Notes: generated by a model not told the origin, from the letters alone. A stretch of 64,000 nt of DNA from Deltaproteobacteria bacterium (GCA_030595125.1 JAUVDV010000021.1:5338-69337); one strand, 5' to 3'; positions 16,512 to 63,993 are shown, numbered from the stretch's first letter. Program-made: numbers and translations.

Positions 16512-16555
16512 CCCCTTCCCCCTCGCAGGGGAAGGCCGGGATGGGGTTCATCGGC
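16506..16555. terminator. palindromic ~50-bp element (ccccttcccc...ggggaagg) immediately 3' of ABC ATPase gene
   Basis: catcatcttccccttccccctcgcaggggaaggccgggatggggtt: GC-rich hairpin. A second copy lies at 54381-54430. Confidence 0.45.
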
Positions 16556-25067: not shown

Positions 25068-25931
25068 ATGAAATGTCTTATTATTCTGGTGTTGACGGCT
25101 GTCATTGCAGGTTTGATACCGGCGTGCGGCGGCGGTGATGGGGGTTACGGCGTTACTGACACAGATACGGACACAGATACAGACTCAGATACCGATACCG
25201 ACGCCGACACTGACACTGACACTGATACAGATACTGACACTGACGCAGATACCGACACTGATACTGATGCTGACGCCGGTATGGATGGAAGCACAGACAC
25301 AGATACAGATACGGATACAGACACAGATACAGATACTGGTACCGACACAGGTACCGATACCGGCACGGATACAGGTACCGACACCGGTACTGACACTGGT
25401 ACGGATACGGACACGGGTTCCGACACGGACACGGGTTCCGACACGGGTACTGATCCATCGGAGGCGTGTCACCCGTCGGCGTACGGGTGGGATCCCGCCT
25501 GGGCGGCGCTGGAAGACCAGGTACTGGTTCTGACCAATATCGAGCGTGCGGCGGGGGCGGATTGCGGGACCGAGGGGGTTTTTCCTGCGGCGGGGCCGGT
25601 CACCATGGAGCCCTATCTGCGGTGCGCGGCCAGGGTTCACAGCCTGGATATGGGCACGACCGACTACTTCAGCCATCTCAGCCCGGGTGGGCCCATCGGC
25701 GACGATCCGTGGGCGCGAGGCGCCAACGCCGGATACACGGGCACAATGGTCGGCGAAAACATCTACGCCGGTTCCTCGACGACCCCCGCGAGCGTTGTGG
25801 CCGGCTGGATGGCCTCGGACGGACACTGCGCCAACATCATGAATGGTACGGCCACCGAGATGGGTGTCGGGTACGCCTACGTGGCCGGTAGCACGTGGGG
25901 GCGGTACTGGACTCAAAATTTTGGATACTGA
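25068..25931 (+). CDS. CAP/SCP/PR-1-like domain lipoprotein with long TD/TG-repeat linker
   Basis: MKCLIILVLTAVIAGLIPAC lipobox; ~100 aa (TD)n; C-terminal CAP-domain motifs HCANIMNG, GVGYAY, YWTQNFG. Confidence 0.7.
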   Translation: MKCLIILVLTAVIAGLIPACGGGDGGYGVTDTDTDTDTDSDTDTDADTDTDTDTDTDTDADTDTDTDADAGMDGSTDTDTDTDTDTDTDTGTDTGTDTGTDTGTDTGTDTGTDTDTGSDTDTGSDTGTDPSEACHPSAYGWDPAWAALEDQVLVLTNIERAAGADCGTEGVFPAAGPVTMEPYLRCAARVHSLDMGTTDYFSHLSPGGPIGDDPWARGANAGYTGTMVGENIYAGSSTTPASVVAGWMASDGHCANIMNGTATEMGVGYAYVAGSTWGRYWTQNFGY

Positions 25932-38057: not shown

Positions 38058-40478
38058 ATGTATCTGCGTGTTTTTATTCCGGTATTTCTGGGGATTATCG
38101 TCGGATGGATGGGGTGTTCGGACGGTGGTGGAGGGTTCGATTTCGACCTGGATGGCGGCGGTGATACAGACACCGACGGAGATACCGACGGAGATACCGA
38201 CGGCGACACCGACGGCGACACCGACGGTGATACCGACACGGACACCGACACGGACACCGACACGGACACGGATACCGACACGGATACCGACACAGATACC
38301 GACACGGATACCGGCACAGATACCGGCACGGACACGGGCACCAGCACCGGATTCGACCCCACGGCTGATACAGACGGAGACGGAATCTCGGATGTGGACG
38401 AGGGGATAGCGGTGTTGCTCGACACAGACTCCGACGGAACTCCGGACTACCTGGACACGGACTCGGACGGTGACGGCATCCTGGACGTCGACGAGGCGGG
38501 CGACGGAGATGTGAGCACGGCGCCACTCGACAGCGATTCGGACGGCACGCCTGATTTCCAGGACACGGACTCGGACGGTGATGGCATCCTGGATTCCGTC
38601 GAGGGCAGCGGCGATAGCGATTCGGACGGAACTCCGGATTACCTGGACCTGGACTCGGACGGTGACGGCATCCTGGATTCGGTGGAGACCGATGGCGACG
38701 CTGACAGTGACGGCACGCCGAACTACCTGGACGACGATTCGGACGGAGACGGTATTCCGGATTCGGTGGAGACCGACGCCGATGCGGATTCGGACGGTAC
38801 GGCCAATTACCTGGATCTGGATTCGGATGGCGACGGTCTGTGGGACATTGTTGAGGCGGGTTCGAATCCGCTCATCCCGCAGGATACGGACGGCGACGGC
38901 ACGGCCAATTACCTGGACACGGATTCGGACGGAGACGGGTTGTCGGACAGCCTGGAGGTGATGTACGGCCTGAATCATCTGTCGATAGACACGGACGGAG
39001 ATACCATCTCCGACACGTACGATGGTTTCATGGACACTGACAGCGACGGCACAATCGACGGCCTGGACATGGACACTGACGGCGACGGGATCCCCGATTC
39101 GGTCGAGGCGGGGGACTCGATCCTCTCGACCCCGCCGGTTGATTCGGATGGTGACGGCCTGCCGGACTTCCAGGATCTGGACTCGGACGGGGATCTCCTG
39201 CCTGACGCGGCCGAGCTTGCTGCGGGCACGGATCCCACCGACCCCGACACGGACGGCGACGGCGCCAGCGATTTTGTGGAGGTGGCCGCCGGGACGGATC
39301 CCCTGGACGACGCCGACAATCCTGCCGCCAGCGGGGACTTCGTGTTCATAATGCCATACAACGGCACCGCAACCCCGGCGTACGACACGCTGGACTTCTC
39401 CTCAGATTTGCAAAAAGCGGATCTCTACTTCCTGGTGGATGTGTCCGGCTCCATGGTCAGCATCCTTGACAACATCAAGACCAACATGGCCACGGTCATC
39501 ACCGATGCCACCGCGACGATTCCGGACCTGCAGACCGGAATTGGATCCTTCCTTTACGCTGAATGCGCGAGCTACAAGGTCTACGATCATCGGCTGGACA
39601 TTCAGGCGAGCCCGGCAGTGGCGGCGTCAACCTTCCCCTCGTATAGCACGACCTACGAGTCATGCGGTGGATGCTGCTCCGAGCCACCCCGTTCCGCAAT
39701 GTACTGCGCGGCGACCGGGTTCGGCACCAGTGAGGCCGCTTCGGCGGGAGTTTCAGTTCCATCTGGAATTCCCAACGAAGTGAGTTGCGCCAACGAGCCG
39801 GGAGCGTGCGGGACAGGATACCTTGGCTATCCATGCTTCCGTCCCGGCGCGCGTCCCATCATTGCGGTTGTGACTGACGAGGGCTTCACCCAGTACACCG
39901 GAACCACCCAGGCGGCCACTATCGCCGCCCTCAATGCCATTGGAGCCAAGACCCTGGGGCTCTACGGCGTGGGTTCCTGGGGATATGCCGGGCGCGACGC
40001 CATGGAGATCTTCATGCTGGCTCAGGGGTCGGTGGACTCCTTCGGCAACCCACTGGTTTTTGATGCAACGTCTTCAGCTTCTTCGGTCATTGTAAACGCC
40101 ATCGAGGCGCTCGCCGAGGTCCCGATGGATCTCTGGGCTTACGGGACCGACAATTACGACGGGATAGATAGCTACGGTCTGAACGACACGGTGGACACGG
40201 TCTCCGAGTTCATCGACTACCTGGAGACCACCGATACCGGTGTTATCTGCACTACCTGGCCCACGTACGATGATGACGGCGACAGTCACGATGACACGCA
40301 CCTGCAGGTGGATCCGGGCAACAGGGTCTGCTGGGACATCCACGTCAAGGACAACGTGACGGTTCCCGCAACCACGTACCCGCAGATCTTTACCGCAACC
40401 ATCCATGTGTGGGGAGACGGCGTCACCGAGGTGGACACGCGCACGGTCTTCTTCCTGGTGCCCCCGACTATCGGGTAG
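38058..40478 (+). CDS. secreted lipoprotein: (TD/GD)n linker, ~20 thrombospondin-type-3 calcium-binding repeats, C-terminal vWA-like domain
   Basis: VGWMGCSDGG lipobox; DTDSDGDGILDSVE-type TSP3 repeats; vWA MIDAS start YFLVDVSGSM. Confidence 0.7.
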   Translation: MYLRVFIPVFLGIIVGWMGCSDGGGGFDFDLDGGGDTDTDGDTDGDTDGDTDGDTDGDTDTDTDTDTDTDTDTDTDTDTDTDTDTGTDTGTDTGTSTGFDPTADTDGDGISDVDEGIAVLLDTDSDGTPDYLDTDSDGDGILDVDEAGDGDVSTAPLDSDSDGTPDFQDTDSDGDGILDSVEGSGDSDSDGTPDYLDLDSDGDGILDSVETDGDADSDGTPNYLDDDSDGDGIPDSVETDADADSDGTANYLDLDSDGDGLWDIVEAGSNPLIPQDTDGDGTANYLDTDSDGDGLSDSLEVMYGLNHLSIDTDGDTISDTYDGFMDTDSDGTIDGLDMDTDGDGIPDSVEAGDSILSTPPVDSDGDGLPDFQDLDSDGDLLPDAAELAAGTDPTDPDTDGDGASDFVEVAAGTDPLDDADNPAASGDFVFIMPYNGTATPAYDTLDFSSDLQKADLYFLVDVSGSMVSILDNIKTNMATVITDATATIPDLQTGIGSFLYAECASYKVYDHRLDIQASPAVAASTFPSYSTTYESCGGCCSEPPRSAMYCAATGFGTSEAASAGVSVPSGIPNEVSCANEPGACGTGYLGYPCFRPGARPIIAVVTDEGFTQYTGTTQAATIAALNAIGAKTLGLYGVGSWGYAGRDAMEIFMLAQGSVDSFGNPLVFDATSSASSVIVNAIEALAEVPMDLWAYGTDNYDGIDSYGLNDTVDTVSEFIDYLETTDTGVICTTWPTYDDDGDSHDDTHLQVDPGNRVCWDIHVKDNVTVPATTYPQIFTATIHVWGDGVTEVDTRTVFFLVPPTIG

Positions 40479-42402: not shown

Positions 42403-43479
42403 CTAGATCTCGGTGAAGGTGACGCTGAGGGCATTCACGGTGTTTGCCGCGGCCTCGCTTACCACCAGGTAGGCGTAGGAATCCGAGCTGCTAGTTCCGA
42501 GGATCTGCAGCAATTCGGGATTCTCGGCCGATTGTACGCAGGAATTGGCATTGCAGGAATCGACCTCTCGCAGGGTCACGTTGGAGGAAGTGGTCTCGGC
42601 CACACCGACTGATAATCCGGCCGGAATGCGCACCAAGAACCAGATGTCCTCGCCGCCGCCGCCATCGCCGCAGTTGGTCCCTCCCGAGAACGTTCCCGTG
42701 AAGTCGGTCCAGAGACCGCTCCATGTGAGTGGATACGTGCCCACGTAGATGATCTGCTCACATCCCTCGGACAGACAATACATGTAGTTGCTTGACGAGA
42801 CGTATCCGCAGGTGCCGCTGCAACTGAGAACTGACAGCGAACTCGTGGTGCTGTTGCACCAGATCGTCTGGCTCAGATCCTGGGTGCAGCAGCCGTAGTA
42901 CCAGGGGTTGGGAGAGATGGGCGAGAACGCCCAGGCCGCAGCGTCGCAGGCGGATGGGGGCGGTTCGGGACAGCACACGACCTCGGTCTCCACCAATGCA
43001 GTCATTTCACACTGTGACAGCGTCGTATCCGTATCTGTATCTGTATCGGTGTCCGTGCCTGTGTCCGTGCCTGTGTCCGTGTCGGTGTCTGTGTCGGTGC
43101 CTGTGTCGGTGCCTGTATCGGTTCCGGTGTCTGTTCCGGTGTCCGTGCCGGTATCTGTGCCTGTATCCGTGCCGGTGTCCGTGCCGGTATCCGTGCCGGT
43201 GTCTGTTCCGGTATCCGTGCCGGTGTCCGTGCCGGTATCCGTGCCGGTATTTGTGCCCGTGTCGGTATCGGTGTCCGTGTCGGTATCTGTATCGGTGTCC
43301 GCGTCGGTATCCGTATCGGTGTCCGTATCGGTGTCCGCGTCGGTGTCCGTGTCGCCGTCCGTATCGGTGTCTGTGTCGGTTGCTCCTGCATCCATTTTGA
43401 ACGACGGGAGCTCCCCACTACATCCGATCACCAGGAGCCAGACAAAGAAGATGGTGAAAATACGAAAAAAAGCTTTCAT
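42403..43479 (-). CDS. lipoprotein with ~130-aa (TD/TG)n linker and Cys-rich C-terminal domain
   Basis: FFVWLLVIGCSG lipobox; long TDTDTD/TGTDTG run; CCPEPPPSAC...YYGCC. Confidence 0.55.
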   Translation of the reverse strand: MKAFFRIFTIFFVWLLVIGCSGELPSFKMDAGATDTDTDTDGDTDTDADTDTDTDTDTDADTDTDTDTDTDTDTGTNTGTDTGTDTGTDTGTDTGTDTGTDTGTDTGTDTGTDTGTDTGTDTGTDTGTDTDTDTDTGTDTGTDTDTDTDTDTTLSQCEMTALVETEVVCCPEPPPSACDAAAWAFSPISPNPWYYGCCTQDLSQTIWCNSTTSSLSVLSCSGTCGYVSSSNYMYCLSEGCEQIIYVGTYPLTWSGLWTDFTGTFSGGTNCGDGGGGEDIWFLVRIPAGLSVGVAETTSSNVTLREVDSCNANSCVQSAENPELLQILGTSSSDSYAYLVVSEAAANTVNALSVTFTEI

Positions 43480-47807: not shown

Positions 47808-49457
47808 TCAGTGATCGTCTTCCGGTTCGCCCGGTAGCTTTATTGACTTGTAGAATCCGCCGCGCTCCTTGACGATACGTTTTCGCCAGTGCTCGGGATA
47901 CGGGGGATGAGTGGCCTTGCCGTTCGCGTCTTTAACGTTTCCGTCGAGGTACTTGTAAAGGAGAAATTCTCCGAGCTTCCTCCACTTCGACAAGGTCTTC
48001 TCGGATTGTTTTCTGGAGTACCTGGTGAGGTAGTTTCGCGCCGCGTCGGGCGCGTTTTTGAACATGCCGACGGCGGTTCTGTCCACGCGGGGTATATCGG
48101 ATAAGAAACCGCCCTCCAGTTCGCGCTGCACTTTTTGGATGTCAACGATCATGTCGCTGTATCGCAAGTACGCGAAGTTGGAGACGAAGTTGAACACCCA
48201 GAACGCCGAGTCCCAGGTGAAGTGATGGAAATCACCGTTGCCCACGGCGAAGGGTTTGGGGGCCTCCTTGATGCCGCAGTACATGGGGACGTAGACTGTG
48301 CTGTAAGTGTCATCCACGCTGAACCACAGGATCCCGCCGATGGGATCCGGAAGCCACGATCGCGCCTGGGCGATAAAGGAGAACCCGGTTTGCTGGGTGG
48401 ATGTGGCCCGCTCGTTGAAGTACTCCTCACCTTCGTGCTCCCAGAAGAGCGGTCGCCATCGGTAAGGAAGGCTGTACGGTCCCGCGCCGACGCCCTTTGT
48501 GAGATCCAGATCCGTTCCCTCGAAATGATCCCTCATCAGCTCCATCACATCCCTGGCGGACAATTTCTTGTCGGGAGTGATCCATAGCGGCAGCGGCCTG
48601 GCGCCCTTCTTTCCCTTGACGTAGTTGGAGGAGAAGTTCTTTGACGGCGCGATCCTCTTGAAAAACGCCCACACCCTTGCTTCGCAGATTCGCAGTTTCC
48701 TGAAGGTCATGGGCGAGTAGGCGTCCATGAAGCTGAAGTCCTTGTCTACTCCGTCAAACCAGCCCATGTCCCGGGCGAAGGAGATCACGTCTCGCGCGTA
48801 CAGGGTGTTCTTGTTGTTGAGCGGGAACTTCCCGATGCGCGCCTGGTTGGCGTGGGCGCTCACGTATCCGTCCGGAATCCTGCGGGCGACCCACACGGCT
48901 CCCCTGTCCTTTTCGCCCTTGCCGATCATGTCCATTATCCAGACCTCGTCGGGGTCCGAGATGGAGAACGACTCCCCCGAGCTGGCGTAGCCGTACTTCT
49001 CCACGAGGCCTGTCATGATCTTGATCGCCTCGCGGGCGGTTTTGGCCCGCTGCAGGGTGATGTACATGAGGCTCCCGTAGTCGACGATCGCGTCCGGGTG
49101 GATGTGCTCCTTGAGCTCCTTGCGCCCGCCCCAGGTGGTTTCCCCAATAGCGACCTGGTGCTCGTTGATGTTGCCCACCACCGAGTAGGTTTGCGGGATC
49201 TGGTCGATCACCCCCAGAAACTTGCCCGTGTCCCACTCGTAAACCTCGAGCTTTTCGCCCGGAAGGTGCAGGGCGGCGGGGGTGTAATAGAGTTCTCCGT
49301 ACATCGAGTGGGAGTCCGCGGCGTAGGAGATCATCGTGGATCCGTCGGTGGAGGCCTTTTTTGAAATGAGGAAGTTGGTGCACGCCCGGGCGTCGTTCGT
49401 CCAGAGGGTGGCCAGGAGGAGAACGCCAATAATTGTGGATATGGTGATGTTCTTCAT
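47808..49457 (-). CDS. peptidase C69-family dipeptidase
   Basis: Signal peptide ending ARA immediately followed by nucleophile Cys (CTNFL); conserved C69 blocks. Confidence 0.8.
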   Translation of the reverse strand: MKNITISTIIGVLLLATLWTNDARACTNFLISKKASTDGSTMISYAADSHSMYGELYYTPAALHLPGEKLEVYEWDTGKFLGVIDQIPQTYSVVGNINEHQVAIGETTWGGRKELKEHIHPDAIVDYGSLMYITLQRAKTAREAIKIMTGLVEKYGYASSGESFSISDPDEVWIMDMIGKGEKDRGAVWVARRIPDGYVSAHANQARIGKFPLNNKNTLYARDVISFARDMGWFDGVDKDFSFMDAYSPMTFRKLRICEARVWAFFKRIAPSKNFSSNYVKGKKGARPLPLWITPDKKLSARDVMELMRDHFEGTDLDLTKGVGAGPYSLPYRWRPLFWEHEGEEYFNERATSTQQTGFSFIAQARSWLPDPIGGILWFSVDDTYSTVYVPMYCGIKEAPKPFAVGNGDFHHFTWDSAFWVFNFVSNFAYLRYSDMIVDIQKVQRELEGGFLSDIPRVDRTAVGMFKNAPDAARNYLTRYSRKQSEKTLSKWRKLGEFLLYKYLDGNVKDANGKATHPPYPEHWRKRIVKERGGFYKSIKLPGEPEDDH

Positions 49458-49569
49458 GGGGCAGACCTTAACTTGGGGGAAGGATGCTTTTCAAGGCCTG
49501 GTAAGCACAAAGGCGCTTGAATACTGCCTGCTCCCCGGCGTCCAAATTATTGAACGCACAAGGCGGGAA

Positions 49570-50271
49570 ATGAAAGGGATTGCCATGAAAACCGGTCGAA
49601 TGGAGGTCTTTGCCAGGGGGTTGAAACGAGCGGGGACGCTGGGAACTTTCGGGGTCTTTTTCGCGTTGCTTTGTGGTGCCCTGCTTGTAAGCGGTCAGGT
49701 TTCCGCCAATGGTCACGCGATCATCGGTAGAGATGCGGTTCTCGATGACCTCGACGACGCGCTTGCGATCATAGGCCAGCTGGAGTTTCAGTCGCAGGCT
49801 TGTCACGGTGGCTCTTGCGTGCGCATGAACAAGAATATTTCAAAGCTCGAGCGCAAACTTCGAAGACTCAAAAAGCACATTCGCCGTGCCCCGTCTCGTC
49901 GACACAATGCCAATGTCGATCTTCGCCACGACGTTTTTCCATATGGCCAGCCTGCCGCCGGGCCGGTGCATCGTGTTATCGACAGGGCCTCGTTTTCTGC
50001 CCTCCTCGCAGTCATGCGTGACGAAAGTTTTGCCGACGACAAGCTGCGTGTTGTCAGGCAAGCGGCCCGCGACTCCTACTTTATGGTGGACCACGTTCTT
50101 CGCATTCTCGACCTCTTCTCTTTTGGAGATGACAAGCTCAAGGCGCTGAAGATGTTGGCGCCACGCATCTACAACCCCGCGCAGAGTTTTCGTGTTTACG
50201 AGGCTTTTGATTTCGACAGCGACCGCGACAGGGCCGCCGAGATTCTCGGGCGCAACGCCCATCGACATTAG
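49570..50271 (+). CDS. DUF4476-domain protein (secreted)
   Basis: C-terminal FADDKLRVVRQAARDSYFMVDHVLRILDLFSFGDDKLKALKMLAPRIYNP pattern; N-terminal signal/TM segment. Confidence 0.55.
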   Translation: MKGIAMKTGRMEVFARGLKRAGTLGTFGVFFALLCGALLVSGQVSANGHAIIGRDAVLDDLDDALAIIGQLEFQSQACHGGSCVRMNKNISKLERKLRRLKKHIRRAPSRRHNANVDLRHDVFPYGQPAAGPVHRVIDRASFSALLAVMRDESFADDKLRVVRQAARDSYFMVDHVLRILDLFSFGDDKLKALKMLAPRIYNPAQSFRVYEAFDFDSDRDRAAEILGRNAHRH

Positions 50272-50280
50272 CGCGTTGCT

Positions 50281-50505
50281 CGAAAAATGGGGTCACGAAA
50301 AATGGGGTCACGAAAACGAAAAATGGGGTCAAAACCCTCCACTTGACATATAGGTTTTGAGAACCTACCCATCTAACCGATTGGTCATTCTTAAGTGTCT
50401 GTGTTCATACACTAAACAAACGTTTAGCTCGGATTCTTGGAAATTTTGACCATGAAGATCTACGGTTAATGCCACTTTATATGTCAAGTGGAGGGTTTTG
50501 ACCCC
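50281..50505. repeat. AT-rich island with three ~15-bp direct repeats (gaaaaatggggtca) and 28-bp perfect terminal inverted repeats
   Basis: IR arms 50333-50360 (ggggtcaaaaccctccacttgacatata) and 50478-50505 (exact reverse complement), enclosing 117 bp at ~35% GC in a ~62% GC background. Confidence 0.6.
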
Positions 50506-50522
50506 CCCCTGGCGAATAGCTC

Positions 50523-51737
50523 CTACGGACAATTAGCCGGAACCGGCGTGCATGTGTCGTTGCGGTTGTCGTGGATATTTATCGTATTGGGCACGTAATC
50601 GAGCTGGTCCAGCAGGTCGCACGTTTCGCAGTCGAAAAGGTTATCGTTGTGCCGGATCCAGATCTCCTTACCCACCGAGGTGATCCCGCCAAGACCATCC
50701 AGGTTGGTAATGGCGGGGCTGCTTGAAATTTCCAACGCCCAACCCACCGAGGTGATCTCGCTCAGGCCGTCAATGTCGGTCAGGGCGTAGTTGTCATCCA
50801 TCCGCAAGCTCCCGGCCACCGAGGTGATCCCGCTCAGCCCGTCAATGTTTTCGAGAACTTCGTTGAAATAGAATTCCAGGCGCCCGACCACCGAGCCGGT
50901 AATGCCGCTCAGCCCGTCAATGTTTGTGAGGGCAAAATTATACCAAATACTCATGTCTCCATCCAGCGAGCCTGTGATGTTGCTCAGGCCGTCAAGGTTG
51001 GTGAGGGCGTAGTTGCATTCAATCCACAAGCCCCCGCCTACCGAGGTGATCCCGCTCAGGCCGTCGAGGTTTGCAAGGACCGGGTTGCCGCCGTCCGGAC
51101 TCATTTCGCCGCTGCTGCCGGAAAAACAGAATCCAATTGTCAAGTTCCCACCCACTGAGGTGATGCCGCTCAGGCCGTCCAGGTTTGTGAGGGCGTCGTT
51201 GCCATCGATGCTCAGGCCCCCTCCAATCGAGCCGGTGATCCCGCTCAGGCCGTCCAGATTGGTGAGGAATCTGTTGTCGCCGATGCTCAGGCCCCCGCCC
51301 ACCGAGGTGATGCCACTCAGACCGTCCAGGCTTGTGAGGGCGTTGTTCCTTGAGATATACAAGCCGCCCACCGAGGTGATGCCACTCAGATCGTCAAGGT
51401 TTGTAAGGCCTGGGTTGCCGCCGCTATAATAACCATCAATTACCAGGCCCCCGCCCACCGAGGTGAGGCAAATCAACTCGCTCAATTCGGTGCACGAAGG
51501 GCACTCGATTGTAAGGTTTCCCGAGATCGATGTGTATCCCGCGAGGGTTGCGACATCAGAATAATTGATTATCTCAAAATCGCCGCTGTACTCTCCCAGG
51601 TTGCACTCGATCGGGCCGGTATCGGTATCGGAGTCGGAGTCAGTGTCGGTCGTCCCACTGTCTCCGATGGACGAAACGTGCGAACAGCCGGCGAAAACCA
51701 GCGCCAGGATCAACAAGAGATATTTGATATCGATCAT
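50523..51737 (-). CDS. secreted lipoprotein with ~12 leucine-rich-like 22-aa repeats (LTNLDGLSGITSVGGxLxIxxN)
   Basis: LALVFAGC lipobox; TDTDSDSDTDTG linker; periodic L..L..L.GL..I..V.G.L.I repeats (receptor-L/LRR_5-like). Confidence 0.65.
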   Translation of the reverse strand: MIDIKYLLLILALVFAGCSHVSSIGDSGTTDTDSDSDTDTGPIECNLGEYSGDFEIINYSDVATLAGYTSISGNLTIECPSCTELSELICLTSVGGGLVIDGYYSGGNPGLTNLDDLSGITSVGGLYISRNNALTSLDGLSGITSVGGGLSIGDNRFLTNLDGLSGITGSIGGGLSIDGNDALTNLDGLSGITSVGGNLTIGFCFSGSSGEMSPDGGNPVLANLDGLSGITSVGGGLWIECNYALTNLDGLSNITGSLDGDMSIWYNFALTNIDGLSGITGSVVGRLEFYFNEVLENIDGLSGITSVAGSLRMDDNYALTDIDGLSEITSVGWALEISSSPAITNLDGLGGITSVGKEIWIRHNDNLFDCETCDLLDQLDYVPNTINIHDNRNDTCTPVPANCP

Positions 51738-52060
51738 CACGGCCCGCCTCCATCTGTCGGGATGATCATATCATTTTTGGGACACAAAAAACTGATTACA
51801 CGCCGATGACGGCAAGTCCCATGGCTCGTGCGGCGCTTGCGAGCATCTTGTCGTGGGTGGCCATGGTCAGCTTGATGCCTCTAATATCGCGATAGGCGAG
51901 CGCAGTTGAAAGATGGATGGCATCCAGAGTGCCCAGGGGCGTGGGAAAAGACGACGAGGCTCTGGAGAAGAATCGAGATAGACCTTCATCGATCAGAACG
52001 TTCTTTCATGAGCGCCTGCAGGCTGCGAGGGGAGGACATCGTTCTGGTCGGAATGCGGTA

Positions 52061-54715
52061 TCAACCTGGCCACCACAGGTCAATAACGGTCTCGATCAGG
52101 CCGGGATCTTTCGAAGGCCGGTCGCCGACGGTATCGCATCCGCAGCCGTCATCGCCGCTGCCGGGGGGACTCTCGATGACGGAGATGTGCGCCAACGCTT
52201 CGGCGAAGAGGCCCGTGTCATCCCGAACCCTGGCCTTCAGGATATACTCGCCGATCTCTTCGAAGGTCACCTCTCTGTTGGAGGCGGCGGTGTAGTCGTC
52301 ATCCCAGGTGCCGTCGTAGTCGTCATCCCACTTGATCTGGAGCTGGCTCTCATCGCTGTCTTCGTCCTGGACCACAACTTCAATTACCATTGGCTTTCCT
52401 GCAAAGGCTTCCCCCGGGACCAGGCTGACGGTGGGCGCCACGCCGTCATTTGATACGCCCAGCGCGCCGGCGGCGTTCAGTCTCCCCCAGCCGTAGGCAT
52501 AGTTGGGAACATCGCCCACCATGTCGTCCACGTGCGCGCCGTCCCTGATGGCCTGCGTTGCGTCGTCGCCTACGATTCCGATCTGTGCCAGCATCGCCGT
52601 GACGCCGGTTACGTGGGGACCGGCGCCGGACGTTCCACCGAACGGAGCTACCGCGCCGTGCGGGACGACGTCACCGCCGGAGGCCTGTCCGTGGGCGGTG
52701 GCTGCCCATGGGTTGTCAGGGGCGGTGATGTCCGGCTTTTGTCGTCCGTCGATGGTCGGCCCCTGGCCGGAGTAGTAACGCACTTCACCGGGATCACCCT
52801 CCGCGTAGAACCACGGTTCTTCCGGTGTGGTGGGGTGTCCGGTATGCGCGCCGATGGCGATGCAGGTCTCCGAGGTCGCGGGCCAGCCGATGGTCCTGTC
52901 ATCTGTGGCGATGCTCTCGTCCCATGCCACGCCTACTCCCCAACTGGAAGTGTTGTCCGACAGATATGCATCGATATTCAGATCGCCAGCGCCCTGTTCG
53001 ACTGCGCTCAGCAACCAATCGCCCAGGGGGATTTCACTGGCAGAGCTATCCGCATACAAGATGACCTCATGAAAACGGGTCCCCTTCACCGTCTCCAGAT
53101 AGCTATGATAATACTGCGCGCCGCCGCTCAGCGGGCCGGTCTCCATGGTCGTTGTCAGGACGATGGGATCGCCGACGGGCGGAGTCAGGGTCAGGAGTGC
53201 GTCACCTATCCCTCGGAGGTTGATCGAGAGGTTGATGTAGTAGAGTCCTTGAAGGTTTGAAACTTCGAAGGCCGCCTGCTGCGAACCTCCCGATGGGAGT
53301 TCCATGCGCGTATGCTTGCGACCGCCGCCGGTGTTTCCGACGGGGCAGGTGTGCGTCACCCCGTCTGATACGGTGGATTCATCGACCATCACGGAGGTGA
53401 TGTCCGTTCCGTCGAGTGGCTCGCCGTACCAGTTGGCCCGCTCGTGCAGAACCACGTCGGCGCCCTCCGAGAGCACCCATGTGAGTCCCGTGCCGCCGTA
53501 TCCGGCGTCCATGTCAACTGCGAGCATGAGATCCACGCCCGGCGCCACGCCGACCCATCGCCGGCCTGCCAGGGGAACATCGCCCGCGATGATGGACATC
53601 ACTCCGGTGGCGTGCCCTGCCGCAGAGAAGACATCCGATTCGTTCAGGAAGTTGGTATCAAACTCCGCCAGATCCACACCCCGTTCGTAGACGCGATCAA
53701 TCGTCTCGTAACCGGAGTAGTTGAAGAAATGGAAAACCTTTGCGATCTTCGAGGTGCCCAGCCGCGCAACCCGCTCGCCCTTGTCGAGGATCCCGTTCGC
53801 GTTGAGATCATCGGGTACGAAGAGCGGTTCTCCCAGTGCAGGGGTTTCGTCGTCAAATCCGTTGGCTGCGCCGTAGTCGCGCTCGCCGTTGGCGTTCTCG
53901 TCAATGTAAAGCCAATCGATGGCGGGTTCAAAGCCGTCCTCCCGCGCATCGACAGGGTAACCGTATTGGAGCATGACCGTCTCCGAGCGCAGCAGCAGGC
54001 CGGTTTCGTTCAGCGCGACGCCGTCGCCGTCAAGGTCGATCGCGTCGATACCGGGGGTAAACGCCTCGTCGCCGTCCACGTCGATCCAATCGAAATACCC
54101 CGCGTCGGCGCGGAAGAACTGGGGGTGAAAGATATCGGCGTTCGTATCTATGTTCGCCACGAGGATTCCTTCTCCGGTGAGCAAGTCCATGGTCGGTTGG
54201 CTTCCCCAGGCGGCCTTCAATCCTATCAAATCCGCGCTGTGATCCATCGGAGCAGGCCCCCGTGCCGGCGCGGACACTATTTGTTGCACGTGGGATAATC
54301 GGGACAGCGCCTGCAGGGCGTCGCGGTCCACTGTCGCCGGGACGAACTGCCTGTAATGTAAAATGCCTTTAAAGCGGTCTCCATCATCTTCCCCTTCCCC
54401 TACCTCAGGGGAAGGCCGGGATGGGGTTAGTTTTCGGAGGTGCGCGCCGGCCGCCTCCAGTGAACAGAGAATTTCACTAGTGGCCGGTGTGTCCAGACGG
54501 ATCACCACCGGTACCAGGTTCGCGTAACGCACACATGCAGCTTCGTCTATGGACGGACCGTGCACCATCCGGGGCACAGCGTGCTCGATTTCGAGCAGAA
54601 CCCTCGAATCCACCTTTGTCTGGATCAGATTCTCGGCGTCGGACTGTGCCCATGCTGTGTTTGCGGCAAGTAGCAAAATGGCTGATAAAGCTAGGTTTTT
54701 GTGCATCGCTGACAA
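52061..54715 (-). CDS. subtilisin-like serine protease (peptidase S8) with I9-like propeptide and inserted TSP3-like Asp loops
   Basis: Signal peptide; Asp region VANIDTN; His region AGHATGVMSIIAG; Ser motif GTSGAGPHVTGVTAML. Confidence 0.8.
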   Translation of the reverse strand: MSAMHKNLALSAILLLAANTAWAQSDAENLIQTKVDSRVLLEIEHAVPRMVHGPSIDEAACVRYANLVPVVIRLDTPATSEILCSLEAAGAHLRKLTPSRPSPEVGEGEDDGDRFKGILHYRQFVPATVDRDALQALSRLSHVQQIVSAPARGPAPMDHSADLIGLKAAWGSQPTMDLLTGEGILVANIDTNADIFHPQFFRADAGYFDWIDVDGDEAFTPGIDAIDLDGDGVALNETGLLLRSETVMLQYGYPVDAREDGFEPAIDWLYIDENANGERDYGAANGFDDETPALGEPLFVPDDLNANGILDKGERVARLGTSKIAKVFHFFNYSGYETIDRVYERGVDLAEFDTNFLNESDVFSAAGHATGVMSIIAGDVPLAGRRWVGVAPGVDLMLAVDMDAGYGGTGLTWVLSEGADVVLHERANWYGEPLDGTDITSVMVDESTVSDGVTHTCPVGNTGGGRKHTRMELPSGGSQQAAFEVSNLQGLYYINLSINLRGIGDALLTLTPPVGDPIVLTTTMETGPLSGGAQYYHSYLETVKGTRFHEVILYADSSASEIPLGDWLLSAVEQGAGDLNIDAYLSDNTSSWGVGVAWDESIATDDRTIGWPATSETCIAIGAHTGHPTTPEEPWFYAEGDPGEVRYYSGQGPTIDGRQKPDITAPDNPWAATAHGQASGGDVVPHGAVAPFGGTSGAGPHVTGVTAMLAQIGIVGDDATQAIRDGAHVDDMVGDVPNYAYGWGRLNAAGALGVSNDGVAPTVSLVPGEAFAGKPMVIEVVVQDEDSDESQLQIKWDDDYDGTWDDDYTAASNREVTFEEIGEYILKARVRDDTGLFAEALAHISVIESPPGSGDDGCGCDTVGDRPSKDPGLIETVIDLWWPG
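54381..54430. repeat. second copy of the ~50-bp ccccttcccc/ggggaagg palindromic element, lying in-frame inside the S8 protease propeptide-linker coding region
   Basis: ccatcatcttccccttcccctacctcaggggaaggccgggatggggtt; translated in the gene frame as SRPSPEVGEGEDDGDRFKG. Confidence 0.55.
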
Positions 54716-54888: not shown

Positions 54889-55707
54889 ATGAAAATACTG
54901 TTTTTGCATTTGTGTCTGGTTGTTCTCGTGACCCTGTCTGTTTCCTGCGCTAAAAGCGTGCTTGAGCCTGGATCGGGCAGCTCCGATTCCGATTCGGACA
55001 GCGATTCCGATTCTGACACCGACACCGACACCGACTCTGACTCCGACACGGACACGGATTCGGACACGGACAGCGACACGGACACCGACACCGACTCCGA
55101 TACGGACACGGACACAGACACCGACACGGATACCGACACAGACACCGATACCGATACCGACACGGGTACGGATACCGGCACCGACACCGGTACGGATACC
55201 GGCACCGACACGGGTACGGATACCGGCACGGGAACGCTGGTCTGCATAGATTTCGATGGTTCATCCGCCCCGAGCACATTCTCTTCGACAACCGCTCTGA
55301 GTACGGCTTATTCGGGCCTCGGTGTGACCTTTTCGGGGCCATCCGTCGGAAGTGGCGGGGCCATTTTGAATGAAGCAGGAGGTTTTGGCGTTTCCGGACA
55401 CAGTTCGCCAAACTTCGTGGCTTTCAATTCGGGCGCGCCTCTTTCGGGCGGAGGAATTCCCATTGGGCCCGAGACGATTCAGTTCACTACACCCGCAACT
55501 TCAGTCAGTGTCTGGGTGGCTGCCAGTAGTGGAGGTACAGTTACGATGACGGCATACAATGGTGTCGGCGGCGTTGTGGACACCGATACAGGCTCGCTTT
55601 CATCCAGCGTAACCGAGTACCAGACGGCCGGAGCAGGAATCGACCATGTTGTTCTTCAGACTACTGTTGCAGTCTGGGTTTTTGACGACCTGTGTTTTGT
55701 CAATTAG
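54889..55707 (+). CDS. lipoprotein with ~100-aa (SD/TD/TG)n linker and C-terminal beta-rich domain
   Basis: MKILFLHLCLVVLVTLSVSC lipobox; SDSDSD...TDTDTD...TGTDTG. Confidence 0.55.
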   Translation: MKILFLHLCLVVLVTLSVSCAKSVLEPGSGSSDSDSDSDSDSDTDTDTDSDSDTDTDSDTDSDTDTDTDSDTDTDTDTDTDTDTDTDTDTDTGTDTGTDTGTDTGTDTGTDTGTGTLVCIDFDGSSAPSTFSSTTALSTAYSGLGVTFSGPSVGSGGAILNEAGGFGVSGHSSPNFVAFNSGAPLSGGGIPIGPETIQFTTPATSVSVWVAASSGGTVTMTAYNGVGGVVDTDTGSLSSSVTEYQTAGAGIDHVVLQTTVAVWVFDDLCFVN

Positions 55708-62000: not shown

Positions 62001-63993
62001 GGCGGGCACCTCGCTGCTCACATACAAACGCCATCTGGCGGACCTATTCAACCAACGCGTCAGGGCCAGGTTCTTCGACAACCAGAGCAACCTTCCCAAC
62101 GGCGATTCGTGCTCGGGCGACGGGATGTGCCTCAACGCCCACTGCGTCGACGGGGTCTGCTGCGACATCGAGTGCGGGGGCAACGATTTCACCGACTGCC
62201 AGGCGTGTTCGATCGCGACTGGAGCGGCGGTCGACGGCGTCTGCGCCACCCTGGCGATCACGCACGAATGCCGTCCCTCCACCGGAGACTGCGATGTAGC
62301 AGACTATTGCGACGGGACGAACACGGACTGCCCGGCCGATGCGATCCTGGAAAGCGGAGAGAGTTGCGACGATAGCGACGATTGCACCCACACCGACGGC
62401 TGCCAGTCCGGGGGCGTCTGCCAGGGGACGGCGTACACCTGCACCTCCGAGGATTGCCTGGCGCGCGCCTGCGATGGTGTCGGTGGCTGCAACGATACGC
62501 CGCTACCCGATACCACTATTTGCGGCACCGCGGCCTGCACGGCGGATTACTGCGTCGGTTTGACGTGGCATGATTATGGCGCCACCTGCGACCTGTACTG
62601 CGACGGGTTCGGAGCATGCGAATCCACCTGCACCTGCACGCCTGCAGACACGGTCTGTGACGTGGGATCGAGCAACGAGTGTTGCGCTGCCCAGTGCGAC
62701 GACGTGGCCGGCTGCTCGACAACGGCCGGGGCATGCGCCGACACCTGCGGCACCACGCTGCTCGCGGTCGGACGCACCTGCGCGGGGTGCGGCGCCAATA
62801 ACGCCGACGGCACGTGCGGCGGCGGCACGGCGTACGACTGCAACGGTACCGTTCACTCTCTGTGTCAGGAGATCTCGTGCGGCGGCACGACCTACTACTG
62901 CACCGAGGTGGGGAGCGTCTGGCAGTGGCGCACGGCAACAGCGTGCGACGACGGCGACGATTGCACGTTCACCGATATCTGCAGCGCAAGCGCCTGTAGC
63001 GGCACCGCGTACACCTGCACCTCCGAGGACTGCCTGACGCGGACCTGCGATGGCGTCGGCGGCTGCAACGTGACGCCGCTACCCGATACCACCATCTGCG
63101 GCACTGCGGCCTGTACGGCGGATTACTGCGTCGGTTTGACGTGGCACGACTATGGCGCCACCTGCGACCTGTACTGCGATGGGTTCGGCACATGCGAATC
63201 CACCTGTACCTGCACACCGGCAGACACGATCTGCGACGTGGGATCGAGCAACGAATGTTGCACGGCCCAGTGCGACGACGTGGCCGGTTGTTCGACAGCG
63301 GCCGGGGCCTGCGCTGACACCTGCGACCCCGCGCAGCTCTCGGTCGGAAGCACCTGCGCGGGGTGCGGCGCCAACAACGCCGACGGCACCTGCGGCAGCG
63401 GCGCGGTGCTGGAGTGCAGCGGAACAACCCACACCGAGTGCGAGTCGGCATCGTGTGACTCCACGACCTACTACTGCACCAACCTTGTATCCACCTGGGA
63501 GTGGCGCGATGCGCCGGACTGTGACGATGGCGATCCGTTTACCTACGACGACGTCTGCGGCGACGGAGGTGTCTGCGCGGGTGAGGTGGACGCCGGGACG
63601 GACACAGACACGGACACGGACACAGACACGGATACAGACACCGATACAGATACGGACACTGACACCGACACAGACACCGATTCCGACACAGATACCGATT
63701 CCGATACGGACACCGATTCCGATACAGATTCCGACGGCTGCACCAATGGCGCCACCCGGTGCGCCGAGGACATCGTCCAGCATTGTGAGAACGGAACCTG
63801 GAACGACTGGAGCGACTGCGTCGTCCAGGGGATGACCTGTGTCATGATCGATGGTGTGGCCCAGTGTGTAGGCGACGACGGCAGCGGCAAGGACTCGGAC
63901 TCCTGCGGATGCCGTGCGATCGGTGGTGGTTCTTGGGAAGGCAAGAGCTTCAACCTGATTACCTTACTGCTGCTGGTGTTGTTAGGAAACTGA
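59095..63993 (+). CDS. giant (1632-aa) secreted lipoprotein: >=13 copies of a ~47-aa DIYGARVD...VLD...PAVAFDG.NYLVVW repeat, two tandem ~195-aa Cys-rich modules, TD linker, MYXO-CTERM-like tail
   Basis: MSSIFRNTMVRLSVLGLVLAMVGC lipobox with SD ggagg upstream; periodic repeat; Cys-rich CDDxDDCT.TD.C...TAYTCTSEDC modules; C-terminal ...CGCRAIGGGSWEGKSFNLITLLLLVLLGN. Confidence 0.7.
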   Translation: MSSIFRNTMVRLSVLGLVLAMVGCADEEDDGSTGGGAVGGSAVVDDQALADAPDVSAPFDISAVIRQVHFAFRPDGDGFKGGHDTYSVRVDRKGAITVTPYIAQENIVAGAPATFETVSVERRQGRLDFVAASPTGRQDGGLEMPRGPAREMLKNSEEGVEQSWSFESEPAGDGDLTIRVRVTGMDYSDRTEHGLHFQDSGTGLGFRYGNATWIDAEGNETRVIPGYRNGEVVMSVPAEVLAVSSYPAVLDPVIGPEFGMDQPVYTPTYYDQDFPKIGSDGSDYFVVWRDNRANDRSIIGTRVTPAGVVLDPYGIDISLSTQGQNSPAVAFGGTHYLVVWRDSRNPSYDIYGARVDTNGVVLDEEGIPISTAPGHQDLPRIAYDGSRFLVVWEDQRDYATTQDDIYGARVDNAGVVLDTGGIAISTDTDYQRSPAVSCGGTSCLVVWNDNRADSNSSWDIYGARVTTTGTVLDPAAFSICEHVHDQDSPTVAFDGTNYLVVWRRNSTVYGARVAPDASVLDSDGFVISTLSTGYYPAVAFSGVVYLVVWVWGGDIRGVRVSTGGSVLDAADIVISAAPSTELYPEVASAGGGFLVVWQDDDGFWPTGLDIFGARVGADGAVLDPTPIEIAQGANDQESHAVAYGSDMYLVVWRDNRNYPVTDDDIYGVRVDSSGTVLDPTGIAISTAADEQDSPAVAFDGVNFLVVWDDNRVGYQVKIYGTLVGTDGVVDEVDGFYIAHYSSVFDADCFNPDVAFDGNVYLAVWQVESALVYGRTISTEGALLGEHFPISDSSGDDQCNPRVAANGAQFLVVWDDERNFSTNGWDIYGARVSSIGGVLDTVPIQISDVMSDQLSPSIAADGTNYMVVWDDKRFSANPDIYAGRLDTSGNVLDGIGVAIAATVGSQTSPTVAFDGTDFVIAWQDGRNYNTTGYDIWGARVDSSLTVLDPAGIELSAENFMEYHPELASNGAGTSLLTYKRHLADLFNQRVRARFFDNQSNLPNGDSCSGDGMCLNAHCVDGVCCDIECGGNDFTDCQACSIATGAAVDGVCATLAITHECRPSTGDCDVADYCDGTNTDCPADAILESGESCDDSDDCTHTDGCQSGGVCQGTAYTCTSEDCLARACDGVGGCNDTPLPDTTICGTAACTADYCVGLTWHDYGATCDLYCDGFGACESTCTCTPADTVCDVGSSNECCAAQCDDVAGCSTTAGACADTCGTTLLAVGRTCAGCGANNADGTCGGGTAYDCNGTVHSLCQEISCGGTTYYCTEVGSVWQWRTATACDDGDDCTFTDICSASACSGTAYTCTSEDCLTRTCDGVGGCNVTPLPDTTICGTAACTADYCVGLTWHDYGATCDLYCDGFGTCESTCTCTPADTICDVGSSNECCTAQCDDVAGCSTAAGACADTCDPAQLSVGSTCAGCGANNADGTCGSGAVLECSGTTHTECESASCDSTTYYCTNLVSTWEWRDAPDCDDGDPFTYDDVCGDGGVCAGEVDAGTDTDTDTDTDTDTDTDTDTDTDTDTDTDSDTDTDSDTDTDSDTDSDGCTNGATRCAEDIVQHCENGTWNDWSDCVVQGMTCVMIDGVAQCVGDDGSGKDSDSCGCRAIGGGSWEGKSFNLITLLLLVLLGN

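What the first reader, a model, noticed from the sequence alone, without database searches (positions are those of the whole stretch)
50281..50505. AT-rich 225-bp island with iteron-like direct repeats and 28-bp perfect terminal inverted repeats between convergent genes
In a ~62% GC region, a ~35% GC segment carries three copies of gaaaaatggggtca and is bounded by a perfect 28-bp inverted repeat (ggggtcaaaaccctccacttgacatata ... tatatgtcaagtggagggttttgacccc) with a 117-nt spacer. This is far longer and more perfect than an intrinsic terminator. Options: a MITE-like non-autonomous transposable element, an ori/iteron remnant of an integrated replicon, a protein-binding site (the IR half-sites contain TTGACA/TATA-like hexamers), or a structured sRNA with a long closing helix.
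Basis: seen in the sequence. Interest (0 to 1): 0.6.

Follow-up and report, generated by a model that had tools for sequence, protein, structure and literature searches.

The report
Miniature transposon made of tyrosine-transposase end repeats
The AT-rich island is a gene-less pair of inverted 29-base end repeats belonging to a known but little-studied family of small mobile elements, "TIRtrons", which encode a RAYT-like tyrosine transposase; it is not a replication origin, and the "iteron-like" repeats are stuttered copies of the element's own tip.

Summary
A perfect 28-nt inverted repeat lies at 50325-50352 / 50478-50505. The arms are 125 nt apart, not 117. GAAAAATGGGGTCA occurs three times. 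The island is 41% GC in a 59% GC window and sits between convergent genes.

The 29-mer GGGGTCAAAACCCTCCACTTGACATATAG is an interspersed repeat. It was found in one Deltaproteobacteria MAG and 20 metagenome contigs as solo copies, tandem copies and inverted pairs. In five loci, two inverted copies flank a ~985-bp unit encoding a ~300-aa IS200-like Y1/HUH transposase. Seven more distant homologues carry their own inverted repeats, six beginning GGGGTCA and one GGGTGTCA.

This matches the published TIRtron/TIRYT class (terminal motif GGGGWSAS; TnpA-REP subclass 2.1). The island is therefore a gene-less TIR doublet. One doublet elsewhere (L021) is clearly an internally deleted TIRtron and occurs in two genomic contexts. 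The origin of the window's own interior is unresolved.

The direct repeats are reiterations of the element's terminal 15 nt. This footprint recurs at paired TIR ends (8 of 28, versus 0 of 15 solo ends) and is polymorphic between strains.

No cognate transposase lies in the window, and mobility and mechanism are inferred. Verdict: a new member of a known kind, of modest interest.

The parts
50281..50324 (+). Reiterated element terminus: CGAAAAATGGGGTCA (50281-50295), CGAAAAATGGGGTCA (50296-50310), CGAAAA (50311-50316), then the purine-rich leader CGAAAAAT (50317-50324) of the complete TIR. Each unit is the leader plus the first 7 nt of the TIR.
   Evidence: The same kind of terminal reiteration occurs at 7 other TIR ends in the set scored, and at both ends of L037 outside that set. 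The purine-rich leader with T at -1 is seen across 43 copies.
50325..50353 (+). Left terminal inverted repeat (TIR), GGGGTCAAAACCCTCCACTTGACATATAG. Its outer end carries the GGGGTCA tag.
   Evidence: Identical 29-mers occur in MAG CSMAG_220 and in metagenome contigs.
50354..50476 (.). 123-nt interior, 39% GC, not conserved in other doublets, origin unresolved. Read on the minus strand, an ATG lies 23 nt from the right TIR, the same spacing as the transposase start codon in full-length elements. This is suggestive only.
   Evidence: (no significant similarity to the ends of full-length elements; lowest p values 0.056 and 0.078).
50477..50505 (-). Right TIR, read on the minus strand: GGGGTCAAAACCCTCCACTTGACATATAA (one mismatch to the consensus, at position 29).
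49336..50271 (+). Upstream convergent gene (context only): DUF4476-domain protein, stop codon TAG at 50269-50271.
50523..51740 (-). Downstream convergent gene (context only): 405-aa protein with at least two copies of a 72-nt (24-aa) repeat unit and no Pfam match. Its stop codon lies 17 nt beyond the right TIR.
   Evidence: (family D1).

Best explanation
The island is a non-autonomous 'TIR doublet'. Two copies of a 29-nt terminal inverted repeat (plus a weakly conserved ~8-11-nt purine-rich leader) face each other across 123 nt of non-coding DNA. These TIRs are the ends of ~985-bp TIRtrons, which encode a TIRYT. A TIRYT is a RAYT-like Y1/HUH tyrosine transposase of the IS200/IS605 superfamily with a C-terminal DnaA-domain-IV-like helix-turn-helix.

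Shown: the family relationship; that the same TIR exists as solo, tandem, doublet and gene-flanking copies; that one doublet elsewhere (L021) is an internal-deletion derivative of a TIRtron; and that the L021-type element end (interior, TIR and 11 nt of leader) occurs in two different genomic contexts.

Inferred: the window copy arose in the same way, or by insertion of such a derivative. It is or was mobilised in trans by a TIRYT encoded elsewhere in the source genome. Mobilisation would be single-strand cleavage and rejoining without target-site duplication, with the conserved GGGGTCA tag playing the recognition or guide role that GTAG plays in classical REPs.

The three direct repeats are reiterations of the element's first 15 nt. 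They are a recurrent, strain-polymorphic footprint confined to paired TIR ends. I attribute it, tentatively, either to transposase cleavage and rejoining at the terminus and just after GGGGTCA(A), or to replication template-switching provoked by the long palindrome.
For: 1. The 20-mer core occurs 8 times in one MAG and in 20 metagenome contigs. Positions 1-4 and 25-29, which lie outside the searched core, are also near-invariant across 43 copies.
2. In L003, L008, L013, L024 and L025, inverted copies flank a 979-987-bp unit. The encoded protein matches Pfam Y1_Tnp (31-37 bits, cutoff 23). Its best NCBIfam match is the REP-associated tyrosine transposase model.
3. The HUH triad and the catalytic-Tyr motif AYIHLNP are invariant in 14 homologues. 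The profile's best solved-structure hit is E. coli TnpA-REP, 4ER8 (E=9e-5), and the C-terminus weakly hits DnaA (E=0.04).
4. Seven more distant homologues (47-68% identity) are each flanked by their own inverted repeats. Six begin GGGGTCA and one, L032, begins GGGTGTCA.
5. This matches the published description: TIRYT/TIRtron, GGGGWSAS motif, TIRs found single, dimeric or grouped (PMC3733652); and subclass 2.1 with Bac_DnaA_C/HTH C-termini (PMC6006769).
6. The L021 doublet interior equals the TIRtron 5'UTR plus ATG joined to the last ~80 nt of the gene (alignment scores 88-91 against a null maximum of 21-28).
7. L015 and L023 share an identical interior, TIR and 11 nt of leader, but have unrelated flanks.
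8. Strong terminal reiterations occur at 8 of 28 paired ends, 0 of 15 solo ends (p=0.02), 0 of 43 inner boundaries and 0.7% of random positions (p=2e-9). L017 carries the reiteration and L021, the same locus, does not.
Against: - No TIRYT gene lies in the 64-kb window (tblastn), and the rest of the source genome could not be reached. A cognate transposase in this organism is therefore assumed.
- Only one TIR locus exists in the window.
- The window's interior shows no significant similarity to TIRtron ends, so its origin by internal deletion is not shown.
- No empty site or syntenic relative was found, so insertion at this locus is not demonstrated.
- No biochemical work on any TIRYT turned up in the paper searches, so the cleavage chemistry and strand specificity are extrapolated from IS608 and TnpA-REP.
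- The TIRYT proteins fall just below NCBIfam's RAYT cutoff (62-74 bits against 80).
- Conservation of positions 5-24 across the collected copies is forced by the exact-match search used to collect them.
Confidence: 0.8

Rival explanations
1. The doublet was not inserted as a unit. Two solo TIRs arrived independently in opposite orientation, as in REP/BIME clusters. The 123-nt AT-rich interior is then the original intergenic DNA of the two convergent genes.
For: Solo TIRs are common (L001, L006, L010-L012, L014, L022). Doublet interiors differ in length and sequence: 24, 38, 48, 87, 106 and 123 nt. The window interior is not significantly similar to TIRtron ends, and at 39% GC it looks like intergenic DNA rather than the transposase gene.
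Against: At least one doublet (L021) is demonstrably a deletion derivative, and the L019 interior looks like one by eye. The window arms are perfect over 28 nt, which suggests a single recent origin. An ATG sits 23 nt from the right TIR, the same spacing as in TIRtrons. The interior contains no recognisable terminator for either gene.
Confidence: 0.2
2. Whatever its origin, the element is now mainly a host-exapted structure. On this reading it is a long hairpin acting as a terminator or mRNA-stabilising element for the convergent genes, or a protein-binding palindrome.
For: The island fills the whole space between two convergent stop codons, where no other terminator-like site is found. The RNA fold has a 28-bp closing helix with z = -7.0 on the plus strand and -5.5 on the minus strand. 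On the minus-strand transcript the helix is followed by AUUUUUCGUUUUCG. The leader outside the TIRs is A-rich, which reads as a U-tract on the opposite strand. REPs and MITEs are known to act this way (PMC3733652).
Against: The loop is 125 nt, far from an intrinsic terminator, and the scan does not call one. The plus-strand side has no U-tract (CCCCCCCC follows the helix). The interior is not conserved. No expression data are available.
Confidence: 0.15
3. A classical DDE-transposon MITE, for example a Tn3-family derived TIME, since Tn3-family inverted repeats also begin GGGG (my own recollection, not tested).
For: The element has perfect TIRs beginning GGGGTC, is 181 bp long, and is intergenic.
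Against: There is no target-site duplication of any length at the window doublet or at the other doublets. In the five TIRtrons carrying this 29-mer, the only gene between the TIRs is a Y1/HUH transposase, not a DDE enzyme.
Confidence: 0.03
4. Remnant of a replication origin (iterons plus an inverted repeat) from an integrated plasmid or phage.
For: There are three direct 14-15-nt repeats next to an AT-rich segment.
Against: There is no blastn match to 72,556 plasmids or 50,697 phages, and no exact match to the core in viral contigs. The four nearest neighbouring genes are chromosomal-type: three peptidases (C69, S8 and S13 families) and a DUF4476 protein. The 'iterons' are locus-specific terminal reiterations that recur with different sequences at other TIR ends.
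Confidence: 0.02

Closest known systems
TIRtrons / TIRYT-associated TIR repeat families (Di Nocera, De Gregorio & Rocco 2013, PMC3733652); TnpA-REP subclass 2.1 of Quentin et al. 2018 (PMC6006769)
   Same: The transposase is a RAYT-like Y1/HUH enzyme of ~300 aa with a C-terminal HTH/DnaA_C-like region. The gene is bounded by non-palindromic terminal inverted repeats at fixed short distances. The outer TIR end fits GGGGWSAS: GGGGTCAA here (7 of 8), and GGGGTCAG in relatives. TIR copies are dispersed at moderate number as singles, dimers and groups.
   Different: The particular 29-mer and its hosts (uncultured Deltaproteobacteria/Myxococcota-type MAGs) are not among the published examples I could read. 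Three things here were not found in the passages of those two papers retrieved by term search (I did not read either paper in full): that doublets can arise by internal deletion of a TIRtron, that the element terminus lies ~8-11 nt outside GGGG, and the recurrent terminal reiterations.
REP / REPIN-RAYT systems (REPtrons) of Gammaproteobacteria (Nunvar 2010; Bertels & Rainey 2011; Ton-Hoang 2012; Corneloup 2021, PMC8266576)
   Same: A single Y1/HUH transposase gene is flanked by inverted copies of a short repeat that is also scattered in intergenic DNA. Inverted doublets form long hairpins. A conserved 5' tag sits next to the repeat. No target-site duplication is made.
   Different: There is no GTAG tag. 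The single unit is not a palindrome (DNA fold z about -0.4 to -0.8). Known copy number is low to moderate. The proteins score below NCBIfam's RAYT cutoff and carry an extra C-terminal domain. The doublet spacer is not conserved.
IS200/IS605-family insertion sequences (IS608, ISDra2)
   Same: The catalytic domain is homologous (Pfam Y1_Tnp; weak profile hits to ISDra2 and other IS200-type transposase structures 2XM3 and 2F4F). The expected mechanism is single-strand 'peel and paste' without target duplication.
   Different: IS200/IS605 ends are subterminal hairpins, not inverted repeats. Here the ends are 29-nt TIRs with no significant self-folding.
Bacterial MITEs (Correia/NEMIS, RUP, ERIC, Nezha)
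   Same: A 70-300-bp gene-less element with 15-30-bp TIRs. It is intergenic, can fold into a long hairpin, and is derived from an autonomous element by internal deletion (shown for L021).
   Different: Classical MITEs are mobilised by DDE transposases and carry target-site duplications. Neither applies here.

Membership tests
TIRtron / TIRYT TIR-repeat family | The repeat is the terminal inverted repeat of a gene encoding a RAYT-like Y1/HUH transposase. | tested here: met
   Five loci have the same 29-mer in inverted orientation around a 979-987-bp unit encoding a Pfam Y1_Tnp protein. Seven more distant homologues have their own TIRs. This was met in related loci, not in the window itself.
TIRtron / TIRYT TIR-repeat family | The outer TIR end fits the GGGGWSAS motif. 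| tested here: met
   GGGGTCAA here fits 7 of 8 positions (the last is A instead of S). L028, L033 and L035 variants read GGG(G)TCAG. The GGGGTCA heptamer is present in six of the seven divergent TIR pairs, and L032 has GGGTGTCA. Motif as given in PMC3733652 and PMC6006769.
TIRtron / TIRYT TIR-repeat family | The transposase carries HUH and catalytic Tyr motifs plus a C-terminal HTH / Bac_DnaA_C-like domain (subclass 2.1). | tested here: met
   H60-Y61-H62 and Y119-x-H-L-N-P are invariant in 14 sequences, and a conserved C-terminal NPxRRFA...EIG...M...QV motif is present. The best PDB hit is 4ER8 TnpA-REP, with a weak DnaA domain hit at E=0.038. Precomputed PF08299 appears on some homologues. 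The DnaA-like assignment itself is weak.
TIRtron / TIRYT TIR-repeat family | TIR copies are dispersed in the genome as single, dimeric or grouped units. | tested here: met
   MAG CSMAG_220 has 8 exact-core copies on 5 contigs, as solo, tandem and inverted-pair arrangements, plus a diverged ninth copy that forms the second TIR of the TIRtron in L003. The same arrangements occur in metagenome contigs.
TIRtron / TIRYT TIR-repeat family | A cognate TIRYT gene is present in the same genome as the window copy. | not testable with these tools
   None lies in the 64-kb window. The source contig is known only as a 71,140-nt NCBI contig and could not be retrieved.
Classical REP / REPIN-RAYT | A conserved GTAG (or CGTC) tetranucleotide at one end of the repeat. 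| tested here: not met
   The unit begins GGGGTCA and contains no GTAG.
Classical REP / REPIN-RAYT | Each repeat unit is itself an (imperfect) palindrome forming a stem-loop. | tested here: not met
   Single units fold at only -3.0 kcal/mol or weaker, no better than shuffles (z -0.4 to -0.8, and +0.4 for the L028 variant). Variants do not covary to keep GTCAA/TTGAC.
Classical REP / REPIN-RAYT | The transposase passes the curated RAYT model. | tested here: not met
   NCBIfam NF047646 gives 62-74 bits against a cutoff of 80. JGI nevertheless labels homologues 'REP element-mobilizing transposase RayT'.
Classical REP / REPIN-RAYT | High copy number (>100 per genome). | tested here: inconclusive
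   There is one locus in 64 kb and 8 exact-core copies in a fragmentary MAG. Diverged copies would have been missed, and no complete genome was available.
DDE-type MITE | Target-site duplication flanking the TIRs. | tested here: not met
   The window flanks are AAAAT|GGGG and CCCC|CCCCT. The other doublets also lack direct repeats across the element.
DDE-type MITE | Derived from an autonomous element that shares the TIRs. | tested here: inconclusive
   This is shown for the L021 doublet, and suggested by eye for L019. It is not shown for the window interior (lowest p values 0.056 and 0.078). The autonomous partner encodes a Y1, not a DDE, enzyme.
Iteron-type replication origin | Iterons next to an initiator gene, and/or similarity to known replicons. 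| tested here: not met
   There is no plasmid, phage or viral match. The four nearest neighbouring genes are three peptidases (C69, S8 and S13 families) and a DUF4476 protein. The repeats are explained as terminal reiterations.
Known structured RNA | A match to an Rfam covariance model. | tested here: not met
   There are no matches at gathering score in the window, and none at E<=10 in 50100-50700. No tRNA or tmRNA was found.

The most novel reading that the evidence does not exclude
The terminal reiterations (leader plus GGGGTCA(A), with a fixed outer boundary and a variable inner boundary) may be direct in-vivo footprints of TIRYT catalysis. On this reading they mark one cleavage site at the true element terminus ~8-11 nt outside GGGG and a second just after GGGGTCA(A). 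They would be the first mechanistic handle on an uncharacterised subclass of HUH enzymes that acts on non-hairpin TIRs. They would also show that these 'domesticated-looking' transposases are currently active, since unit number differs between strains.
Probability: 0.25. Interest if true: 0.55.

Novelty: new member of a known kind. Interest (0 to 1): 0.35.

Why it matters
TIRYTs (TnpA-REP subclass 2.1) are a very large protein family; this search found 963 homologues at E<=1e-5. Their DNA substrates and activity have been described in only two papers in the searched library, and I found no biochemical work on them.

This locus and its relatives add four things. They give a clean, well-conserved TIR sequence. 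They show that gene-less doublets can arise by internal deletion of a TIRtron and can then appear at new sites. They place the element terminus about 10 nt outside the GGGG tag. They also provide a recurrent, strain-polymorphic terminal reiteration that could guide cleavage-site mapping.

For annotating this genome, the practical message is that the island is a small mobile-element relic, not an origin, an sRNA gene or a regulatory operator.

Tried and rejected
- **Rfam and tRNA.** Rfam at gathering score over the whole window and at E<=10 over the locus gave nothing. The tRNA/tmRNA scan gave nothing.
- **Plasmids, phages, viruses.** blastn of the island against plasmids and phages gave nothing. 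An exact-core scan of viral contigs gave nothing.
- **Promoter and terminator.** The sigma-70 promoter scan found none in the island, and TTGACA in the arms has no suitable -10 at 16-18 nt. The intrinsic-terminator scan found none in the island.
- **Target-site duplications.** None at the 28-nt arm boundaries or at shifted boundaries.
- **Single-unit hairpin (REP-like).** Not better than shuffles.
- **Window interior as a decayed TIRtron remnant.** My by-eye resemblances to the 5'UTR/ATG and the stop-codon region did not survive a shuffle test (lowest p values 0.056 and 0.078). I therefore do not claim this.
- **Synteny or an empty site.** The DUF4476 neighbour has no close relatives (next best 32% identity) and its contig could not be fetched. 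L017 shares 77% identity with the 3' end of the downstream gene but is not collinear.
- **A single cleavage dinucleotide (CT/CA, as for TnpA-REP).** This fits the window and several other loci, but not L017, L025- or L024-, where the boundary cannot fall after TCA. I rejected it as a general rule.
- **Other possibilities.** CRISPR repeat was rejected because the spacing is wrong (11-nt 'spacer' in L004). Resemblance to a T3/T7-like promoter (…TATAG) was noted and set aside as untestable and unsupported.

Full report
**1. Observation**

- Arms 50325-50352 and 50478-50505 are a perfect 28-nt inverted repeat. It is unique in the window and never seen in shuffles.
- The arms are 125 nt apart, not 117.
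- GAAAAATGGGGTCA occurs at 50282, 50297 and 50318.
- Read exactly, the left side is [CGAAAAATGGGGTCA]x2 + CGAAAA + CGAAAAAT, followed by the arm.
- The island is 41% GC and its interior 39%. The flanking genes are 56-57% and the window is 58.9%.
- It occupies 225 of the 251 bases between the stop codons of two convergent ORFs. One is a DUF4476 protein. The other is a 405-aa repeat-containing protein with no Pfam match.

**2. What the arms are**

An exact scan for the 20-nt core of the arm gave two sets of hits.
- In one genome per species (GTDB collection) it found 8 matches, all in a single MAG, Deltaproteobacteria bacterium CSMAG_220.
- In JGI metagenomes it found 20 further contigs.

In these loci the unit GGGGTCAAAACCCTCCACTTGACATATAG occurs in four arrangements:
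- solo copies;
- tandem direct copies;
- inverted pairs with interiors of 24-123 nt;
- inverted pairs about 950 nt apart.

Positions 5-24 are conserved by construction of the search. Positions 1-4 (GGGG) and 25-29 ([T/C][A/T]TAG) are not constrained by the search and are nearly invariant in 43 distinct copies.

The ~950-nt interiors (L003, L008, L013, L024, L025; whole units 979-987 bp) each encode a ~300-aa protein.
- The three that were scanned (L008, L013, L025) match Pfam Y1_Tnp, the IS200-like transposase family.
- The best NCBIfam match is 'REP-associated tyrosine transposase', at 62-74 bits, just under the 80-bit cutoff.
- An alignment of 14 family members shows an invariant H-Y-H triad, an invariant AYIHLNP tyrosine motif and a conserved C-terminal helix-turn-helix-like segment.
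- The alignment profile's best solved structure is E. coli TnpA-REP, 4ER8 (E=9e-5). There is a weak hit of the C-terminus to DnaA.
- The family is large: 963 hits at E<=1e-5. JGI names many of them 'REP element-mobilizing transposase RayT', and NCBI records come from Deltaproteobacteria and Myxococcota MAGs.
- Many hits lie on contigs about as long as the element. L029 (982 nt) begins and ends at its inverted repeats.

**3. Generality**

Seven more distant homologues (47-68% identity) are each bounded by their own inverted repeats:
- GGGGTCAAGACCCGCCAGTTGACACATAG (L027)
- GGGTCAGGACCCACCAGTTGACATATA (L033)
- GGGGTCAGGACCCATCAATTGTCATATGG (L035)
- GGGTGTCAGGACCCTCCACTTGACATATAG (L032)
- GGGGTCAAACCTTGACGATTGACATT (L031)
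- GGGGTCAAACCTACTCACTTCTCACTTT (L030)
- GGGGTCAGGTATTCACATTTCACATTTT (L028)

The body of the repeat changes with the protein, while the outer GGGGTCA tag stays. L032 has a variant form of the tag. The upstream repeat ends 16-27 nt before the ATG in five of these seven loci (74 and 118 nt in L033 and L030). The downstream repeat abuts or overlaps the stop codon.

**4. Comparison with the literature**

This is the arrangement that Di Nocera et al. (2013, PMC3733652) called a TIRtron. They described RAYT-like 'TIRYT' genes flanked by terminal inverted repeats that share the motif GGGGWSAS. They also reported moderately abundant TIR families occurring as single, dimeric or grouped copies.

Quentin et al. 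(2018, PMC6006769) place most TIRYTs in TnpA-REP subclass 2.1, characterised by C-terminal Bac_DnaA_C or HTH domains.

The classical REP criteria are not met:
- there is no GTAG tag;
- single units do not fold better than shuffles;
- the RAYT equivalog score is below cutoff.

The arms are therefore TIRs of a TIRYT family, and the island is a TIR dimer. No biochemical work on a TIRYT turned up in my searches.

**5. How doublets arise and move**

The L021 doublet has a 106-nt interior. This consists of the TIRtron 5'UTR and ATG joined to the last ~80 nt of the gene (alignment scores 88-91, null maximum 21-28). It is an internally deleted TIRtron, in other words a MITE-like derivative.

L015/L021 and L023 carry the identical interior, TIR and 11 nt of leader (AAGACGGAAAT), followed by unrelated flanks. 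So the derivative exists in two genomic contexts, and the element terminus lies about 11 nt outside GGGG.

Three further observations fit this:
- The two ends of L028, L032 and L037 share 4-10 nt outside the tag.
- Across 43 copies, positions -11 to -2 are purine-rich and position -1 is T in 26 of 43.
- Whole TIRtrons also change context. L008 and L024 are 88% identical only between the TIR ends. L025 and L003 are 90% identical but inverted relative to a conserved flank.

For the window itself the interior shows no significant similarity to TIRtron ends (lowest p values 0.056 and 0.078). An ATG lies 23 nt from the right TIR, which matches TIRtron spacing but is only a hint. No TIRYT gene is in the window. 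The rest of the source genome and close relatives were unreachable. Origin by deletion, insertion as a unit, and current mobility are therefore inferences for this copy.

**6. The 'iteron-like' repeats**

The repeats are reiterations of the element's first 15 nt (8-nt leader plus GGGGTCA). Equivalent reiterations occur at other loci:
- Units are 12-20 nt.
- The outer boundary is fixed and the inner boundary varies (after GGG, GGGGTCA or GGGGTCAA).
- They are seen at L016-, L017-, L019-, L023-, L024+, L024- and L025-, and at both ends of L037.

By a uniform test, strong cases number 8 of 28 paired TIR ends. The comparisons are 0 of 15 solo ends (p=0.02), 0 of 43 inner TIR boundaries, and 0.7% of random positions (p=2e-9).

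L017 and L021 are the same locus from two assemblies (96.8% identity) and differ by one such unit. The events are therefore recent.

Joints show only 0-2 nt of microhomology. In L023 the unit's outer boundary coincides with the mapped element terminus.

I cannot decide between two mechanisms. One is transposase-mediated cleavage and rejoining at the terminus and after GGGGTCA(A). The other is template switching at a palindrome-stalled fork. A single CT/CA cleavage rule, as known for TnpA-REP (PMC8266576), fits some loci but not all.

**7. Possible host effects**

If transcribed, the island folds with a 28-bp closing helix (z = -7.0 and -5.5). On the minus strand the helix is followed by a U-rich tract. 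No other terminator-like site lies between the two genes. A secondary role in 3'-end formation or mRNA stability is therefore possible but untested.

**8. Verdict**

The ori/iteron, sRNA and promoter options are not supported.
- The element belongs to a known but sparsely studied class (TIRtron/TIRYT). This is a new member, and it carries an unexplained terminal-reiteration footprint that is worth a biochemical follow-up.

Noticed in passing
window 16497-16553 and 54367-54429 (+): A second interspersed repeat...CATCATCTTCCCCTTCCCC-N7/8-AGGGGAAGGCCGGGATGGGGTT. It contains a CCTTCCCC/GGGGAAGG hairpin and lies within ~10-20 nt downstream of an in-frame-looking TAA triplet (gene frames were not checked). 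Copies that are 86-100% identical lie in metagenome contigs L015, L021 and L023, which also carry the TIR. It may be a separate REP-like or terminator family.
   Followed up: partly
window 5345-5460, 25147-25453, 38181-38349, 43043-43380, 54981-55231, 63598-63736: Repetitive stretches, some overlapping large ORFs, that cross-match each other and similar stretches in L003, L010, L024 and L026 at 70-83% identity. They are probably short tandem peptide repeats in large secreted proteins. I did not examine them.
   Followed up: no
L025 209-1203 and 1700-2821 vs L003 5874-6874 and 6878-8000: The same TIRtron (90% identity) sits next to the same flank (85% identity) in two related genomes, but in opposite orientation and with ~500 nt extra in L025. 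This suggests inversion between the TIRs, or re-insertion.
   Followed up: no
L013 321-1333: This TIRtron copy has an in-frame TAG near the N-terminus of the transposase gene, so it is probably a pseudogene. It also carries an extra, more diverged TIR copy just outside the TIR on the 5' (ATG) side of the gene.
   Followed up: no
L027, L031, L035 (assembly GCA_028713995.1): One MAG carries three TIRYT paralogues (P0022, P0098, P0027; 50-61% identical to the query). Each has its own TIR variant, as reported for Koribacter in PMC3733652.
   Followed up: partly
L030 2850-3000: Three direct copies of the cognate TIR (GGGGTCAAACCTACTCACTTCTCA...) lie upstream of the TIRYT gene, with one inverted copy downstream. 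This is a 'grouped' TIR arrangement.
   Followed up: no
L008 1214-1247: The transposase reading frame runs into the downstream TIR: the C-terminus ...QVSSGGF is encoded by the TIR itself.
   Followed up: no
L038 2496-3909: A DDE transposase gene (DUF772/DDE_Tnp_1_6) lies immediately downstream of a TIRYT gene. Here the downstream TIR seen in the otherwise identical L037 locus is missing, so an IS may have inserted at or near the TIR.
   Followed up: no
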